Assembly (NCBI RefSeq): GCF_003334785.1
Contig: NZ_QOWV01000002.1
Reading direction: 5' to 3' (one strand)
Source of the DNA: Escherichia coli
GTDB lineage: Bacteria > Pseudomonadota > Gammaproteobacteria > Enterobacterales > Enterobacteriaceae
Length of the DNA stretch: 64,000 nt
Shown: positions 12,706 to 49,051 of the stretch, piece by piece
Layout: every line of letters starts with the position of its first letter
How positions within the stretch are numbered: position 1 is the first letter of the stretch
Made by a program: the position numbers and the translations under genes
Notes under the pieces: model-generated
The model's input: only the letters and a program-made list of their open reading frames with translations
The model's database searches: none
Told to the model about the DNA's origin: nothing

Positions 12706-13602
12706 TTATTCCTTGTCTAAAACCTGACGAATAAAGCCGCCGTGTTGATCCAGGCGTTTTTTAGCTTCTGCGGCATCGAGATTTTTCAGCACCATCACAA
12801 TGGCCGTTTTACAGTTGCGCTCGCAAGCAATTAACGCCGCTTCCGCTTGCTCTGCGCTACATCCGGTGGCGTTTTTAACAATATTGACCTGTCGCACATG
12901 CAGTTTTTCGTTGGTGGCGACCACATCGACCATCAGGTTGCCGAACACTTTGCCGGATTTAATCATCAGCCCGGTGGAAAGCATATTGAGCACCAGTTTC
13001 TGCGCTGTACCTGCTTTCATCCGCGAAGAACCGGTAACAACTTCGGCACCTACAATCGGTGTAATGGCAAACTCAGCGGTGGTTGAAACGGCGCTCCCCG
13101 GATTACAGGAAATTCCCACTGTGCGGCAGCCGAGCTGGCGTGCGTATTCCAGTCCGGCAATCACATACGGCGTGCGACCGCTGGCAGCAATGCCAACCAC
13201 CACATCCTGTGCCGTTAAATTAATATTTTTCAGATCATTAACACCGCCTTCCCGGCTATCTTCCGCGCCTTCCACCGCGTGCTGAATGGCATATTCGCCG
13301 CCAGCAATCAAACCAACCACCAGACCCGGTTTCACGCCGTAGGTGGGCGGACATTCGCTGGCATCCAGAATCCCCAGACGACCGGATGTTCCCGCACCGA
13401 GGTAAATCAGACGCCCGCCGCCGCTTACCTGGGCGTGGATAACATCGATCGCCGCGGCGATATCCGGCAGTACGCGCTCAACGGCAAGCGGTACGGTTTT
13501 ATCTTCATCGTTGATAATCCGGCACATTTCCAGCGTCGATACGCGGTCAATTTCAGCCGAGGCGGTGTTCGAGCCTTCAGTAATCATCTTTTCAAATTGC
13601 AT
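12706..13602 (-). CDS. murQ: N-acetylmuramic acid 6-phosphate etherase
   Basis: 298-aa ORF ([26 protein letters not shown]...); SIS domain; operon with murP. Confidence 0.95.
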
Positions 13603-19732: not shown

Positions 19733-19770
19733 GTAGACCTGATAAGACGCGCAAGCGTCGCATCAGGCAA
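19733..19770. repeat. Single REP element
   Basis: CCTGATAAGACGCGCAAGCGTCGCATCAGGC palindrome between cysA and cysM. Confidence 0.8.
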
Positions 19771-43267: not shown

Positions 43268-44470
43268 TTACAGCACCAGTGCTGCGATTGACGCAGACAG
43301 CACACTCACCAGGGTAGAGCCGTAAACCAGCTTCAGACCGAAGCGAGAAACCACGTTACCTTGCTCTTCATTCAGGCCTTTAACTGCACCTGCGATAATC
43401 CCGATTGAAGAGAAGTTAGCGAAGGAAACCAGGAACACAGAGATGATGCCTTCAGCACGCGGAGAGAGCGTGGAAGCAATTTTCTGCAGATCCATCATCG
43501 CAACGAACTCGTTGGAAACCAGTTTGGTCGCCATGATACTGCCCACTTGCAGTGCTTCACTGGAAGGAACACCCATCACCCATGCAATCGGATAGAAGAT
43601 GTAGCCCAGGATGCCCTGGAAGGAGATGCTGTAGCCAAACCAGCCAGTAACGGTGGCAAACAGTGCGTTCAGCGCGGCGATCAGGGCGATAAAGCCAATC
43701 AGCATCGCGGCAACGATAATGGCAACTTTGAAACCTGCCAGAATGTATTCACCCAGCATTTCGAAGAAGCTCTGACCTTCGTGCAGGTTGGACATCTGGA
43801 TGTTTTCTTCACTGGCATCAACACGGTAAGGATTGATCAGCGACAGCACGATAAAGGTGCTGAACATGTTCAGTACCAGCGCAGCAACGACGTATTTCGG
43901 TTCCAGCATGGTCATGTATGCACCAACGATGGACATCGACACGGTGGACATTGCCGTGGCAGCCATGGTGTACATACGATTACGGGAGATTTTGCCGAGG
44001 ATATCTTTATAGGCAATAAAGTTTTCAGACTGACCCAGAATCAGGGAGCTGACGGCGTTAAAGGATTCCAGTTTGCCCATGCCGTTGACTTTGGAGAGCA
44101 GGAAACCAATTGCGCGGATGATCACCGGCAACACGCGAATGTGCTGGAGAATACCGATCAGTGCAGAGATAAAGACGATTGGGCACAGCACTTTCAGGAA
44201 GAAGAATGCCAGGCCTTGATCATTCATGCTACCAAAGACGAAGTTAGTCCCTTCGTTGGCAAATCCGAGCAGTTTTTCGAACATTTCGGAGAAGCCTTTC
44301 ACGAAGCCTAAACCAACGTCGGAGTTCAGGAAGAACCACGCCAGTAACACTTCGATAACAAGCAGTTGAATAACATAACGGATACGAATTTTTTTGCGGT
44401 CGCTGCTTACCAGCAGTGCGAGAATCGCAACAACGGCAAGTGCCAGTACAAAATGAAGGACGCGGTCCAT
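43268..44470 (-). CDS. nupC: Nucleoside:H+ symporter NupC
   Basis: 400 aa from ATG at 44470 ([27 protein letters not shown]...). Confidence 0.94.
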
Positions 44471-44738
44471 ATTTGCTCCAAATATGAGGCAGGTTAAATT
44501 TCCGTGCACATTCTATGTAACATGGTTAAGGAAAACGAGATCTGACACACACTATAATGACGTCCTGTGACAGGCTTCAAAAATAGTGATCTGTCATACA
44601 TTTCTGCTATGTTGTGTATGGAAGCTGAAAGTTATGTAAATGTGCTAACATTAAACATAACCATAACATTCAAGTCATCAATCTTTTCGTAGTCATAATC
44701 CTGGTCTATCAGAGAAATCACCACAATCCATTTAAATG

Positions 44739-44757
44739 AATTTGATAATCATTCTCG
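44739..44757 (+). promoter_or_regulatory. Putative Fur box in the mntH promoter
   Basis: GAATTTGATAATCATTCTC resembles the Fur consensus GATAATGATAATCATTATC; mntH is known to be Fur-regulated. Confidence 0.5.
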
Positions 44758-44771
44758 TTTGGTATAGCATG

Positions 44772-44793
44772 AAACATAGCAAAGGCTATGTTT
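44772..44793 (+). promoter_or_regulatory. MntR operator (palindromic MntR box) in the mntH promoter
   Basis: AAACATAGC-AAAG-GCTATGTTT perfect inverted repeat, 13 bp upstream of the mntH ATG; agrees with the MntR box as I recall it from the literature. Confidence 0.7.
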
Positions 44794-44796
44794 TAG

Positions 44797-46044
<1,248 letters not shown>

Positions 46045-46050
46045 TTGAAT

Positions 46051-46160
<110 letters not shown>

Positions 46161-46184
46161 ATTGTGCTCCATTGGCGGACGCGT

Positions 46185-46511
46185 TTAATGGCGGTGCCCA
46201 TGACCCCGGCCTTTTCCGCGATGATCGTCACGATCGCGCCAGCCTTCACGATAGCCACGCTCATACGCTTTACGCTTATCCCAGCCACGGTGGTAGCCAT
46301 TATCATGACGCCACCAACGGTTTTTGCGCCACTCATAATTGCGATGCCAGTAGTCACGGTCGCGCCAGTGACCACCGTCCCAGTAATTACCGTAATGATC
46401 GCGATCGCCAATTTGTAATTTGATTGATGGCAGTAGGGTGATTTCACCTGCGTTTGCTGCAAGCGGGGTAAATGCCATCAGGGCGGCCGCCAGAAACAGT
46501 GACCTGAACAT
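46185..46511 (-). CDS. ypeC: Periplasmic low-complexity protein YpeC
   Basis: 108-aa ORF with signal peptide ([21 protein letters not shown]) and W/R/D/H-rich repetitive C-terminus. Confidence 0.85.
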
Positions 46512-46625
46512 TGTTATTCTCCTTCACGCTCGAAGCCGTCAGCGGCCTGTTAACGCAATATTACGGGGAGGTAAAGCCCCGTATCATCGCCATAACTCTT
46601 AAATCATAAAGGAGAGCATTTTTTG

Positions 46626-47882
46626 CTAAACGTTATCGTGGGGTGGCTGTTGCTTCGGACGATTGACCATCATCATCGGCTTACCTGCTAATAACAGCCA
46701 TGCCGGAAGCATGACGATACAGAGCAGCGGTAGCAATGTGGTATTGGGTACAACGACTGCCGCCATAAAAAGACTTAACCAGCCATCGCGTGTTACCACC
46801 AGCACGATGCCGAGAATAGCGCAAGAAACGGTTATTGCCGCTGGTACGGCGGGAACGTGCTCATGCAGCATCAACCCTAATGCCACGCCGACAAACACTG
46901 CCGGGAAGATTCGCCCACCGCGAAAGCCACTGGCGGCAGCAACGACCAGGGCGGCAAGTTTAATTACCGCCAGCAAAAAGTAATCGCTGGTGCTGAAAGC
47001 CTGATTTGCCACCATCTGCTGCATCTCATCCAGCCCTTTAAACAGCGAAACTGGTCCACCAATAACCCCCAGAATACCGAGAATAAATCCGCCAATACCC
47101 AGCACGAGCACCGGATTTTTCATTTGATGCATCATCGCGTGCAACCGTGGTAAGCACCATACGGCGACCATCCCTGCTGCGATGGCAATCGCCGCGACAA
47201 TTGCACCGCTGAGAATATCGGTCATTTCCATCTGTCCGTAATGAGCAATGGGCAGTGAAAAATGAGGATGGAAAAATAATCCGGTAGTAAGTGCACCAGC
47301 TGCTGCCGCCATTAACGGCGCAAAGAGACGATCCCATAGCGGAACTTCACTACTGCCATTTAAGGTTTGCGAAAATATCAACGCCGCCGCAACAGGAGTG
47401 CCAAACAGTGCGCCGATGGTTCCGGCAGAGGCTAAAATAGTCCACTCCATTCGGTTGACGCGCGGTAACAGACGAGCGCCAATGGCAACCGCAAGGGCGA
47501 TATTGACGGTCATGATCGGATGTTCCGGCCCCAGGCTGACGCCGCCAGCAAGACCGAGAATTAATGCTACGATAAGTCCAGGTAGCGCAGAGGGCGGAAC
47601 CGGTGCGCCGATCAGCGGTTCACAGGCGGGGTCTGGTCCGGCATGACCCTGGCTGAAACGGATAACCAACCCCACCGCAATACCCGTTAGCGTTAATACA
47701 CCGATGATCCAGAGGGGTGAATCCTGGGCTATCCCCAGAGTTCCCGGCAGTCGTTGCCAGAGCAAATTCTGTAATACCGAGGCGATTTTCATCACCACAA
47801 TCAGAATAAGACTGGACGCAATCCCAATTGCCACGGCGGGGAGCGATAATAACAACATGGTTCTGGCTCGCGGATGGAGCAT
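46626..47882 (-). CDS. yfeO: Putative ClC-family ion channel/transporter YfeO
   Basis: 418-aa polytopic membrane ORF. Confidence 0.85.
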
Positions 47883-48085: not shown

Positions 48086-49051
48086 ATGACAAAGTATGCA
48101 TTAGTCGGTGATGTGGGCGGCACCAACGCACGTCTTGCTCTGTGTGATATTGCCAGTGGTGAAATCTCGCAGGCTAAGACCTATTCAGGGCTTGATTACC
48201 CCAGCCTCGAAGCGGTCATTCGCGTTTATCTTGAAGAACATAAGGTCGAGGTGAAAGACGGCTGTATTGCCATCGCTTGCCCAATTACCGGTGACTGGGT
48301 GGCGATGACCAACCATACCTGGGCGTTCTCAATTGCCGAAATGAAAAAGAATCTCGGTTTTAGCCATCTGGAAATTATTAACGATTTTACCGCTGTATCG
48401 ATGGCGATCCCGATGCTGAAAAAAGAGCATCTGATTCAGTTTGGTGGCGCAGAACCGGTCGAAGGTAAGCCTATTGCGGTTTACGGTGCCGGAACGGGGC
48501 TTGGGGTTGCGCATCTGGTCCATGTCGATAAGCGTTGGGTAAGCTTGCCAGGCGAAGGCGGTCACGTTGATTTTGCGCCGAATAGTGAAGAAGAGGCCAT
48601 TATCCTCGAAATATTGCGTGCGGAAATTGGTCATGTTTCGGCGGAGCGCGTGCTTTCTGGCCCTGGGCTGGTGAATTTGTATCGCGCAATTGTGAAAGCT
48701 GACAACCGCCTGCCAGAAAATCTCAAGCCAAAAGATATTACCGAACGCGCGCTGGCTGACAGCTGCACCGATTGCCGCCGCGCATTGTCGCTGTTTTGCG
48801 TCATTATGGGCCGTTTTGGCGGCAATCTGGCGCTCAATCTCGGGACATTTGGCGGCGTGTTTATTGCGGGCGGTATCGTGCCGCGCTTCCTTGAGTTCTT
48901 CAAAGCCTCCGGTTTCCGTGCCGCATTTGAAGATAAAGGGCGCTTTAAAGAATATGTCCATGATATTCCGGTGTATCTCATCGTCCATGACAATCCGGGC
49001 CTTCTCGGTTCCGGTGCACATTTACGCCAGACCTTAGGTCACATTCTGTAA
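48086..49051 (+). CDS. glk: Glucokinase
   Basis: 321-aa ORF ([35 protein letters not shown]...). Confidence 0.96.

What the first reader, a model, noticed from the sequence alone, without database searches (positions are those of the whole stretch)
46185..46511. YpeC: a secreted, highly repetitive W/R/D/H/Y-rich small protein convergent with mntH
After a signal peptide the protein is dominated by repeats such as [73 protein letters not shown], ending in a His-rich tail. This composition suggests metal or polyanion binding in the periplasm, and its location next to the Mn/Fe importer mntH is suggestive but may be coincidental.
Basis: inference. Interest (0 to 1): 0.3.

Follow-up and report, generated by a model that had tools for sequence, protein, structure and literature searches.

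The report
YpeC, an envelope-stress periplasmic small protein
This is the already-annotated E. coli gene ypeC, a small exported protein of unknown function with a very odd amino-acid make-up; published data tie it to cell-envelope and drug stress, nothing found here ties it to manganese or iron, and its place next to mntH looks inherited rather than functional.

Summary
The ORF at 46185-46511 (-) is real and is E. coli K-12 ypeC (100% DNA identity). It matches Pfam DUF2502 and is present in 5425 of 5426 complete E. coli genomes.

**Confirmed:**
- A signal peptide with an AxA cleavage site.
- An extreme W/R/D/H/Y/G composition, 84% of the 73-residue core, about 8 SD above the rest of the window.
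- A His-rich C-terminus.
- Convergent arrangement with mntH.

**Not confirmed:** "highly repetitive". Internal self-similarity equals that of shuffled sequences (p=0.47), there is no DNA tandem repeat, and no length difference was seen between the E. coli strains sampled.

**Anatomy:** The protein has one conserved 26-residue module (GDRDxxGxYWDGxxWRDxxWW) inside a confidently predicted small domain with no structural relatives. A disordered tail follows. Some relatives in other Enterobacterales carry two modules.

**Regulation points away from Mn/Fe:**
- mntH carries a perfect MntR box and a Fur-like box. The ypeC upstream region has neither.
- ypeC has a conserved MarA/SoxS site (published ChIP targets).
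- ypeC rises 42-60x with the Rcs response to a LolCDE inhibitor and falls 24x in an rcsB mutant.
- The paralogue yaaX and a Serratia homologue are also Rcs-controlled.

The mntH adjacency is order-wide inherited synteny; paralogues sit elsewhere. Metal binding by the His-rich end is plausible but untested. This is a known gene of unknown function and of low to moderate interest.

The parts
46185..46511 (-). ypeC coding sequence (108 codons plus TAA stop); DUF2502 family
   Evidence: ORF list and translation. 100% identical to E. coli K-12 and annotated 'DUF2502 domain-containing protein YpeC'. Pfam PF10697 E=1e-23, model 1-90/90. Third-position substitution bias.
46449..46511 (-). Sec signal peptide, residues 1-21 ([21 protein letters not shown]), predicted cleavage ANA|GE
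   Evidence: Sequence inspection. A19 and A21 are invariant and the hydrophobic core is conserved in alignments A1-A3. AF2 models it as a low-confidence helix. No predictor was run.
46296..46448 (-). Predicted small folded domain, residues 22-72 (N-terminal beta-hairpin [12 protein letters not shown] packed against Trp/Tyr)
46338..46415 (-). The single conserved 26-residue DUF2502 module, residues 33-58 ([26 protein letters not shown])
   Evidence: Family-wide invariant residues are P28, G35, G41, Y43, W44, D45, G46 and W49; D36, D38 and W55 are nearly invariant. The module HMM hits once in YpeC (49.9 bits) and twice in tandem in 10 distant homologues.
46188..46295 (-). Disordered tail rich in Arg/Asp/Gly/Trp/Tyr/His, residues 73-108, ending in HGHRH
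   Evidence: pLDDT below 50 for residues 72-108. Indels of an H(R/K)GW(D/Y)K unit and a variable (GH)n end among orthologues. Tail composition and the terminal His cluster are conserved across the family without alignable sequence.
46519..46525 (-). Shine-Dalgarno sequence GAAGGAG
   Evidence: Sequence. (A)GGAG is conserved in 20 genera.
46533..46548 (-). Small GC-rich stem-loop (AGGCCG-CTGA-CGGCTT) between the putative -10 box and the SD; probable mRNA leader hairpin (inferred)
   Evidence: Present in 53 of 56 distinct orthologue leaders. Arm variants include GGTC/GACC and GACC/GGTC, and different stems sit at the same place in Pantoea and Chimaeribacter. Statistics are weak (mean z -0.9). 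RNAalifold on the MAFFT alignment predicted nothing.
46558..46587 (-). Putative core promoter: -35 ATGATA (46582-46587), 18-bp spacer, -10 TAATAT (46558-46563). Inferred, with no transcription start data available here
   Evidence: These are conserved blocks in the 20-genus footprint. yaaX promoters have the same layout, ATGACA-N18-TAAGCT. The simple consensus scan did not call it.
46594..46603 (-). Conserved upstream block TTTAAGAGTT just upstream of the putative -35; candidate RcsB half-site (TAAGA), unproven
   Evidence: Conserved in the footprint. The best match in the region to the 14-bp RcsAB box is only 7 of 14.
46616..46630 (+). MarA/SoxS binding site (marbox) GCATTTTTTGCTAAA, in reverse orientation relative to ypeC; it overlaps the yfeO stop codon
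   Evidence: Exact match to the site reported for the E. coli MarA ChIP-seq peak at ypeC, with in vitro binding scored +++ (PMC5684230). It is also identical to the Salmonella SoxS site (PMC10268841). It is unique in the window and conserved in most of the 20 genera aligned. The centre would lie at about -72 from the inferred start, a usual position for reverse sites.
46073..46160 (.). Two REP-type palindromes (46073-46102 and 46129-46160) in the mntH-ypeC convergent spacer
   Evidence: Inverted repeats. Sub-threshold Rfam naRNA4 (REP-derived) matches. A similar pair lies at 19737-19768.
44738..44793 (+). Context only: mntH promoter with a Fur-like box (44738-44756, 15/19) and a perfect MntR palindrome (44772-44793, 18/18)
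   Evidence: Consensus scans. The same scans give at most 12/19 and 11/18 upstream of ypeC.

Best explanation
ypeC encodes a Sec-exported periplasmic protein of about 11 kDa (pI about 10) from the small DUF2502 family. It has a compact domain with a Trp/Tyr core (residues 22-72), built around one conserved module, GDRDxxGxYWDGxxWRDxxWW. A disordered Arg/Asp/Gly/Trp/Tyr-rich tail follows and ends in a His cluster. It is an envelope-stress gene. It has its own weak promoter with a MarA/SoxS site bound in vivo, its transcript rises and falls strongly with the Rcs phosphorelay, and I found no regulatory link to the neighbouring Mn/Fe importer mntH. The adjacency is inherited gene order. For mechanism, I think the most likely activity is that the folded domain positions a flexible tail in the periplasm of a damaged envelope. 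The terminal His/Asp-rich cluster of that tail would bind divalent transition-metal cations (Zn, Ni or Cu rather than specifically Mn or Fe) or protons. In the YpeC subfamily the tail's net positive, aromatic character would also favour contact with anionic envelope polymers. Shown here: gene identity, conservation, composition, module anatomy, absence of internal repeats, marbox, absence of MntR and Fur boxes, and synteny. Taken from the literature: MarA and SoxS binding and Rcs-linked expression. Inferred: signal-peptide cleavage, promoter elements, the fold (prediction only), and the whole biochemical activity. I put about 0.9 on identity, localisation and regulation, and about 0.3 on the metal/proton-binding activity.
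For: Identity and conservation. Export signal. Fold plus disordered tail. Orphan fold. Module anatomy. MarA/SoxS: the exact published marbox is at 46616-46630 and is conserved in most of the 20 genera aligned. Rcs: ypeC rises 42-60x with a LolCDE inhibitor alongside Rcs genes (PMC5105897) and falls 23.7x in an rcsB-disrupted O157 strain (PMC5343319). The paralogue yaaX is in the RcsB regulon (PMC2731931, PMC3599342). A Serratia DUF2502 promoter is used as an Rcs reporter (PMC8470065). ypeC is among 13 homologous genes shared by the E. coli and Klebsiella recipient responses to RP4 conjugation. No Mn/Fe regulation signal: MntR 18/18 and Fur 15/19 at mntH, against 11/18 and 12/19 at ypeC. His chemistry: tails of 36 family members average 19% His. 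His is concentrated in the last 15 residues (114 against 77 +/- 6; maximum of 1000 shuffles 97). Net tail charge is not conserved (-8 to +10), which argues against a purely electrostatic role. One earlier Rcs transcriptome study compared low temperature with and without zinc excess (PMC2731931).
Against: No experiment addresses the protein's activity. There is no match to any metal-binding family in Pfam, NCBIfam or the PDB. E. coli YpeC sits at the low end of His content for the family (12% of the tail, 6 His). His residues are not more closely spaced (i+1 to i+3) than composition predicts (109 against 108). The shuffle tests treat related sequences as independent. No clear RcsB box was found, so Rcs control could be indirect. 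The promoter and transcription start are inferred. The ypeC-mntH pair persists even where outer neighbours differ (L092), so a functional link cannot be fully excluded. Supplementary tables of metal-regulon studies could not be searched.
Confidence: 0.5

Rival explanations
1. Pure polyanion or glycan binder. The Arg/Trp/Tyr-rich cationic surface binds LPS, phospholipid head groups, peptidoglycan, periplasmic glucans or colanic acid, stabilising or shielding a stressed envelope. In this reading the His residues only tune charge.
For: Mature YpeC has net charge +7 and pI about 10, with 15 aromatic residues in 87. YpeC-type tails carry net 0 to +10. Induction follows envelope damage and accompanies capsule genes.
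Against: Positive charge is not conserved in the family: YaaX-type and other tails are neutral to -8. Most conserved Trp and Tyr lie in the predicted folded core, so they are probably structural. No similarity to known carbohydrate- or lipid-binding domains was found.
Confidence: 0.2
2. Disordered periplasmic stress protectant, hydrophilin-like or Asr-like. The highly hydrophilic, Gly-rich, largely unfolded chain prevents aggregation of envelope proteins during desiccation, acid or osmotic stress.
For: GRAVY is -2.1 and Gly is 15% in the mature protein. The tail is predicted disordered. A DUF2502 gene rose log2 5.4 after 4 weeks in cold soil. ypeC appears in a table of genes changing after rapid acid treatment (value 1.3, units not checked) and in multi-stress gene sets.
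Against: Half of the mature protein is a confidently predicted, position-specifically conserved domain. That is not expected of a generic hydrophilin. The resemblance to Asr rests on memory and was not tested.
Confidence: 0.15
3. One reading: YpeC works with MntH in Mn/Fe acquisition, for example as a periplasmic Mn/Fe-binding accessory, and the adjacency is functional.
For: The convergent DUF2502-Nramp pair is kept across Enterobacterales. This holds in Pantoea, Chimaeribacter, a two-module homologue locus (L090) and a locus with different outer neighbours (L092). The tail is rich in His and Asp.
Against: The genes are convergent, with promoters at opposite ends and REP elements between them. 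MntR and Fur boxes are present at mntH and absent at ypeC. Known regulators of ypeC are Rcs and MarA/SoxS. Insertions of about 5 kb, or loss of the adjacency, occur in 12 of 80 loci. yaaX, a third paralogue type and the Deefgea homologue have no Nramp or metal gene nearby. His-rich sites generally favour Zn, Ni and Cu over Mn (general coordination chemistry).
Confidence: 0.05
4. Signalling modulator: a small periplasmic protein that feeds back on an envelope sensor (RcsF/IgaA or another sensor kinase) rather than acting on the envelope itself.
For: Strong Rcs-linked induction. The family's taxonomic range (Enterobacterales, plus Deefgea and some metagenomic sequences of unknown origin) largely overlaps that described for the Rcs system.
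Against: There is no direct evidence. No partner gene is conserved next to any family member.
Confidence: 0.07
5. Not a functional protein: a low-complexity ORF kept by chance.
For: Biased composition also opens long ORFs in other frames of the same DNA.
Against: It is a core gene in 5425 of 5426 E. coli genomes. Substitutions are biased to the third codon position. Conservation across Enterobacterales is position-specific. It has a strong SD, and published RNA-seq shows large regulated changes.
Confidence: 0.01

Closest known systems
DUF2502 (Pfam PF10697), including the E. coli paralogue YaaX
   Same: Full-length match to the family model (E=1e-23). Shares the signal peptide, the N-terminal hairpin, the GDRDxxGxYWDGxxWRDxxWW module and a His-rich low-complexity tail. 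YaaX is also Rcs-induced.
   Different: YpeC-type tails are cationic and rich in Trp/Tyr/Arg, whereas YaaX-type tails are neutral to acidic and rich in His/Asp/Pro. The two occupy different loci, mntH against thrC-yaaA. Some ypeC-position homologues in other Enterobacterales carry two modules. The family has no assigned function.
Rcs-regulon small exported proteins (for example OsmB, Bdm, YmgD/YmgG, YpfG, Ivy, Spy)
   Same: Small proteins, many described as envelope-associated and mostly uncharacterised, that are co-induced with ypeC by a LolCDE inhibitor, and with the paralogue yaaX by colicin M and RcsB overproduction.
   Different: No sequence or predicted structural relationship to any of them was found. 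An RcsB site at ypeC has not been demonstrated.
MarA/SoxS/Rob regulon class I promoters
   Same: A reverse-oriented marbox about 72 bp upstream of the inferred start. The site is bound by MarA in vivo and in vitro in E. coli and by SoxS in E. coli and Salmonella.
   Different: The transcriptional effect of the site on ypeC was not found in the texts read. The position relative to the start is inferred.
Histidine-rich metal-binding tails and proteins (for example the His-rich ends of SlyD, HypB and UreE, Hpn, periplasmic ZraP and the ZnuA loop); recalled from general knowledge, not tested
   Same: A flexible terminal cluster of His interspersed with Gly, Asp and Arg, such as (GH)n, HDHD and HHH.
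   Different: No homology. E. coli YpeC has only 6 His in the tail. Metal binding and metal-responsive expression are untested.
Trp/Arg-rich cationic antimicrobial peptides and the acid-stress protein Asr (analogy by composition only, from memory)
   Same: Short, cationic, aromatic or His-rich, largely unstructured segments that act at membranes or in the periplasm.
   Different: YpeC is an endogenous, Sec-exported, stress-induced protein with a folded domain. No similarity was detected. This is a lead, not a test.

Membership tests
DUF2502 / PF10697 (YpeC/YaaX family) | Significant match to the Pfam model over its full length | tested here: met
   E=1e-23, 83.8 bits, residues 23-106 against model 1-90/90. 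All listed homologues carry PF10697.
DUF2502 / PF10697 (YpeC/YaaX family) | Conserved module P-x3-L-x-[IL]-G-D-x-D-x2-G-x-Y-W-D-G-x2-W-x5-W after a signal peptide | tested here: met
   All invariant positions are present in YpeC. The module HMM scores 49.9 bits.
E. coli K-12 ypeC (b2390, UniProt P64542) orthologue | Sequence identity and the glk-yfeO-ypeC-mntH-nupC gene order | tested here: met
   100% DNA identity to MG1655 and others, annotated ypeC. Gene order. The gene name, b-number and UniProt accession are linked.
Sec-exported periplasmic protein | N-terminal signal peptide with an AxA signal-peptidase I site and no lipobox | tested here: met
   Judged by inspection and conservation only. 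No predictor was available and no localisation experiment was found.
Tandem-repeat protein | Internal repeats beyond what composition gives | tested here: not met
   Self-match 45 against 45 +/- 8 in shuffles (p=0.47). TRF found none. No second module hit.
MarA/SoxS/Rob regulon | A marbox upstream of the gene that is bound by the regulator | tested here: met
   The site itself was found: the exact 15-mer at 46616-46630, 12/14 to the consensus, and conserved across genera. Binding comes from the literature.
Rcs regulon | RcsB-dependent expression | not testable with these tools
   Literature only: -23.7x in an rcsB-disrupted strain and +42 to +60x with Rcs-activating LolCDE inhibition.
Rcs regulon | Recognisable RcsB or RcsAB box at the promoter | tested here: inconclusive
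   Best match 7/14 to the RcsAB box. A conserved TTTAAGAGTT block with a TAAGA half-site lies next to the putative -35.
MntR / Fur (Mn/Fe) regulon, or an operon with mntH | An MntR or Fur box upstream, or co-transcription with mntH | tested here: not met
   ypeC upstream gives 11/18 (MntR) and 12/19 (Fur). The mntH promoter gives 18/18 and 15/19. The genes are convergent with REP elements between them.
Known metal-binding protein families | Homology to a characterised metal-binding domain | tested here: not met
   No hit in NCBIfam, in Pfam other than DUF2502, in PDB sequences or in PDB folds.
Known metal-binding protein families | Measured metal binding or metal-responsive expression | not testable with these tools
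   None of the 15 full texts that contain the string 'ypeC' (several are unrelated uses of it) reports a metal response. Supplementary tables are not searchable.

The most novel reading that the evidence does not exclude
DUF2502 proteins could be an unrecognised class of periplasmic cation-handling stress proteins found mainly in Enterobacterales. A small Trp-cored orphan-fold domain would carry a His-rich disordered tail that buffers or delivers Zn, Ni or Cu (or senses pH) when the Rcs system reports envelope damage. The order-wide persistence of the ypeC-mntH pair would then reflect a real, so far unnoticed, connection between envelope stress and divalent-metal homeostasis.
Probability: 0.15. 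Interest if true: 0.5.

Novelty: already known. Interest (0 to 1): 0.25.

Why it matters
YpeC is one of the most strongly induced uncharacterised genes in the Rcs-linked datasets read here: 42-60x up on lipoprotein-trafficking inhibition and 24x down without RcsB. It is also a direct MarA and SoxS binding target, so it belongs to two responses linked to antibiotic tolerance. Knowing what it does would fill a gap in how enteric bacteria repair or shield a damaged envelope. The present analysis does not reveal a new kind of system. It corrects the description (no repeats; one module plus a disordered tail), weakens the Mn/Fe idea, and narrows the experiments worth doing.

Tried and rejected
- **Internal repeats.** Self-comparison against shuffles, residue-class autocorrelation (only a weak period-6 signal, z=2.3), TRF on the DNA and a module HMM on the C-terminal half were all negative.
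- **Metal regulation.** Fur and MntR consensus scans upstream of ypeC gave background scores, while the same scans found the mntH sites.
- **RcsB box.** No convincing match was found.
- **Sigma-70 scan.** No promoter was called. The promoter I propose rests on cross-genus and paralogue conservation only.
- **Rfam.** There is no known RNA family in the leader or the gene, only sub-threshold REP-like matches in the 3' spacer.
- **Leader hairpin covariation.** RNAalifold on a MAFFT alignment predicted no pairs, because the variable loop misaligns the 3' arm. Per-sequence folding shows the stem in 53 of 56 leaders, but with weak z-scores. I left this as a side note.
- **Guilt by association.** No conserved functional partner appears next to the Deefgea homologue, a metagenomic homologue, yaaX or the third paralogue type.
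- **An EF-hand-like DxDxxG metal loop in the module.** I considered this and dropped it. D36 and D38 are replaced by other residues (Ser, Asn, Glu, Tyr) in Deefgea proteins and in second modules.
- **Literature.** Searches for b2390 and STM2407 added only an identifier table or nothing.
Full report
**What is there.** The window carries nupC (43268-44509, -), mntH (44806-46044, +), a 108-codon ORF at 46185-46511 (-), yfeO (46626-47882, -) and glk (48086-49051, +). The 901 bp around it are 100% identical to E. coli K-12 and other strains, where the gene is annotated "ypeC: DUF2502 domain-containing protein YpeC".

The ORF alone is found once in 5425 of 5426 complete E. coli genomes at mostly 95-100% identity. 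All 11 full-length matches in an evenly spaced sample of 12 were ungapped over 327 nt. It matches Pfam PF10697 (DUF2502) over the whole model (E=1e-23). It matches nothing in NCBIfam or PADLOC.

It is a real coding gene:
- A GAAGGAG Shine-Dalgarno sequence lies 7 nt upstream.
- Substitutions against Salmonella, Citrobacter and E. albertii are concentrated at third codon positions (35/50, 38/52, 27/33).
- Published RNA-seq shows large regulated changes.

**Checking the observation.** The N-terminus ([21 protein letters not shown]|GE) has the layout of a Sec signal peptide. The -3 and -1 alanines are invariant in 61 family members, and there is no cysteine. This rests on inspection; no predictor was available.

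The composition is extreme. The 73-residue core uses ten amino-acid types, and W+R+D+H+Y+G make up 84% of it. That compares with 25% +/- 7% over 23,859 stop-free windows in all six frames of the 64 kb, and the next best window elsewhere reaches 56%. The mature protein is about 11 kDa, with pI about 10, net charge +7 and GRAVY -2.1.

The claim that the protein is "highly repetitive" does not hold:
- The best internal self-match scores 45, against 45 +/- 8 in 2000 shuffles (p=0.47).
- Residue-class autocorrelation shows only a weak period-6 signal.
- Tandem Repeats Finder finds nothing in the DNA.

The apparent repeats are what a ten-letter alphabet produces.

**Anatomy from relatives.** The family is small. 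An exhaustive search of 1.84 billion cluster representatives gave 85 hits. A scan of 100,044 species genomes gave 266 relatives. Named members are:
- Enterobacteriaceae, Erwiniaceae (Pantoea) and Yersiniaceae (Chimaeribacter, Rouxiella).
- A Serratia homologue.
- Yersinia, Hafnia and Erwinia in the AlphaFold database.
- A few Deefgea.

Across all of these the conserved part is the signal peptide, a short hydrophobic hairpin, and the motif GDRDxxGxYWDGxxWRDxxWW. The invariant residues are P28, G35, G41, Y43, W44, D45, G46 and W49.

An HMM of this 26-residue module hits YpeC once (residues 33-58, 49.9 bits). It finds only noise (at most 2.9 bits) in the C-terminal half. It hits twice in tandem in ten distant homologues (second copies 21-35 bits). 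At least two of these two-module proteins occupy the ypeC position next to an Nramp gene. So the true repeat unit of the family exists, but YpeC has a single copy.

Among close orthologues, the only length changes are one to three copies of a short H(R/K)GW(D/Y)K unit and a variable (GH)n end.

Most conserved Trp and Tyr lie within this predicted domain. I infer that they are largely structural: the domain has almost no aliphatic residues apart from the N-terminal hairpin.

**The tail.** Tails cannot be aligned between subfamilies, yet their composition is kept. Over 36 members the means are 19% His, 22% Arg/Lys, 15% Asp/Glu, 12% Gly and 13% Trp/Tyr.

- His is concentrated at the very end: 114 His in the last 15 residues of 26 tails, against 77 +/- 6 in shuffles, with a maximum of 97 in 1000 shuffles.
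- His residues are not more tightly spaced than composition predicts.
- Net tail charge ranges from -8 to +10. YpeC-type tails are cationic, and YaaX-type tails are neutral to acidic.

What is conserved is His-richness, not positive charge. That favours His chemistry (metal or proton binding) over simple electrostatic binding of polyanions. The sequences are related, so the shuffle statistics overstate independence.

**Regulation and the mntH question.** mntH and ypeC are convergent, 140 bp apart, with two REP-type palindromes between them. The mntH promoter, 1.7 kb away on the far side of mntH, has a perfect MntR palindrome (44772-44793, 18/18) and a Fur-like box (15/19). The same scans give 11/18 and 12/19 upstream of ypeC, which is background.

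The ypeC upstream region instead contains GCATTTTTTGCTAAA at 46616-46630, unique in the window.
- This is exactly the site reported for the MarA ChIP-seq peak at ypeC in E. coli, with strong in vitro binding.
- ypeC is also named there as a SoxS ChIP-exo target (PMC5684230).
- The same 15-mer is the SoxS site at ypeC in Salmonella (PMC10268841).

For Rcs, the evidence is:
- ypeC rose 42-60x with a LolCDE inhibitor, alongside Rcs genes (PMC5105897).
- ypeC fell 23.7x in an O157 strain with disrupted rcsB (PMC5343319).
- The paralogue yaaX is in the RcsB regulon (PMC2731931, PMC3599342).
- A Serratia DUF2502 promoter serves as an Rcs reporter (PMC8470065).
- Other papers place ypeC in multi-stress gene sets and in the shared recipient response to RP4 conjugation.

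None of the full texts that mention ypeC reports a metal response, but supplementary tables are not searchable.

**Promoter (inferred).** I aligned the upstream regions from 20 genera. The conserved blocks are:
- The marbox.
- TTTAAGAGTT (46594-46603).
- ATGATA (46582-46587).
- TAATAT (46558-46563), 18 bp downstream of ATGATA.
- A small GC-rich stem-loop.
- The SD.

yaaX promoters have the same ATGACA-N18-TAAGCT layout. With a start near 46551, the reverse-oriented marbox centre lies at about -72. That is one of the usual positions for reverse sites (PMC10268841). No clear RcsB box was found. The TAAGA-containing block next to the -35 is only a candidate.

**Is the mntH adjacency meaningful?**
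- Of 80 Enterobacteriaceae loci, about 65 keep ypeC convergent with mntH.
- Six of the 80 have about 5 kb inserted between the two genes.
- Six of the 80 show no mntH within 6 kb.
- The pair is also kept in Pantoea (with a methyltransferase in between) and in Chimaeribacter.
- It is kept at a two-module homologue locus (L090) and at a locus whose outer neighbours differ (L092).

This is order-wide inherited synteny of a block that also holds glk, ipdC, gpr and nupC. Where the family occurs independently, no Nramp or metal gene is nearby. That applies to yaaX (thrABC-yaaX-yaaA), a third type next to fklB, Deefgea, and a metagenomic homologue. I therefore rate a functional MntH link at about 5%. 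I note that the persistence of the pair at L092 keeps it from being zero.

**Mechanism.** Three points are solid. YpeC is very probably exported. It belongs to the envelope-stress (Rcs) and MarA/SoxS programmes. It consists of a small orphan-fold domain plus a disordered tail ending in a His cluster.

My preferred activity, at about 0.3, is binding of divalent transition metals or protons by the tail, with the cationic aromatic tail of the YpeC subfamily also favouring contact with anionic envelope polymers. The rivals are:
- A pure polyanion or glycan binder (0.2).
- A disordered protectant (0.15).
- A signalling modulator (0.07).
- An MntH accessory (0.05).
- A non-functional ORF (0.01).

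One earlier Rcs transcriptome study compared low temperature with and without zinc excess (PMC2731931). That is compatible with a Zn connection but proves nothing.

**Novelty and verdict.** This is a known, annotated gene of a known domain-of-unknown-function family, and its regulation is already in the literature. This analysis adds four things:
- A corrected description: no repeats, but one module plus a disordered tail, with the module duplicated in some relatives.
- A predicted orphan fold.
- A family-wide terminal His cluster.
- Evidence that the mntH adjacency is most likely inherited rather than functional.

Interest is low to moderate.

Noticed in passing
window 46616-46630 and the yfeO stop at 46626-46628; loci L007-L080: In most Enterobacteriaceae about 3 kb separates yfeO from ypeC; this is ipdC plus gpr according to PMC5770404 and the Pfam calls in Pantoea and Chimaeribacter. 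In Escherichia that segment is missing, and the yfeO stop codon TAG lies inside the ypeC marbox TTTAGCAAAAAATGC. The deletion endpoint therefore abuts the regulatory site.
   Followed up: partly
window 46533-46548 (-): A small GC-rich stem-loop sits between the putative -10 box and the SD of ypeC. It is present in 53 of 56 distinct orthologue leaders, with arm variants GGTC/GACC and GACC/GGTC, and unrelated stems occupy the same place in Pantoea and Chimaeribacter. There is no Rfam match and the statistics are weak.
   Followed up: partly
window 46563-46582 (-): A second palindrome, ACGGGG-CTTTACCT-CCCCGT, lies in the inferred -35/-10 spacer. It shows apparently compensatory changes in Salmonella, Lelliottia and Pseudocitrobacter, and ACGGGG and TTTACC blocks are shared with yaaX promoters. 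If the true start is further upstream, this would be leader RNA structure instead.
   Followed up: no
window 46073-46102 and 46129-46160; also 19737-19768: REP-type palindromes (sub-threshold Rfam naRNA4 matches) fill the mntH-ypeC convergent spacer. A similar pair occurs near 19.7 kb.
   Followed up: partly
window 44738-44793: The mntH promoter carries a perfect 22-bp MntR palindrome, AAACATAGCAAAGGCTATGTTT, and a Fur-like box 16 bp upstream of it.
   Followed up: yes
L001, L037; AFDB entry A0A0A2WL73: Probable contamination in public records. A 398-bp 'Rhizobium wenxiniae' contig is 100% E. coli ypeC. A 'Chryseobacterium sp. 18061' contig has the full enterobacterial glk-yfeO-ypeC-mntH-nupC order. 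A 434-aa 'Beauveria bassiana yghZ' protein matches YpeC at 75% identity, consistent with a bacterial gpr-ypeC fusion call in a contaminated assembly.
   Followed up: no
window 46103-46462 (-) and proteins P0134, P0147, P0177, P0195: The biased codon content opens long ORFs in other frames. Several database 'homologues' have hydrophobic tails (for example ...[20 protein letters not shown]...) that look like frameshifted read-through into the alternative frame. These are probably assembly errors, not variants.
   Followed up: partly
L091 4001-4429: A third DUF2502 locus type, a two-module 142-aa protein, lies between fklB and a flavodoxin-like gene, near rpsF-priB-rpsR-rplI. Some Enterobacterales therefore carry at least three paralogue types.
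   Followed up: no
window 13259-13477 (-): This is the second most W/R/D/H/Y/G-rich stop-free 73-aa window in the 64 kb (56%). It was not examined.
   Followed up: no
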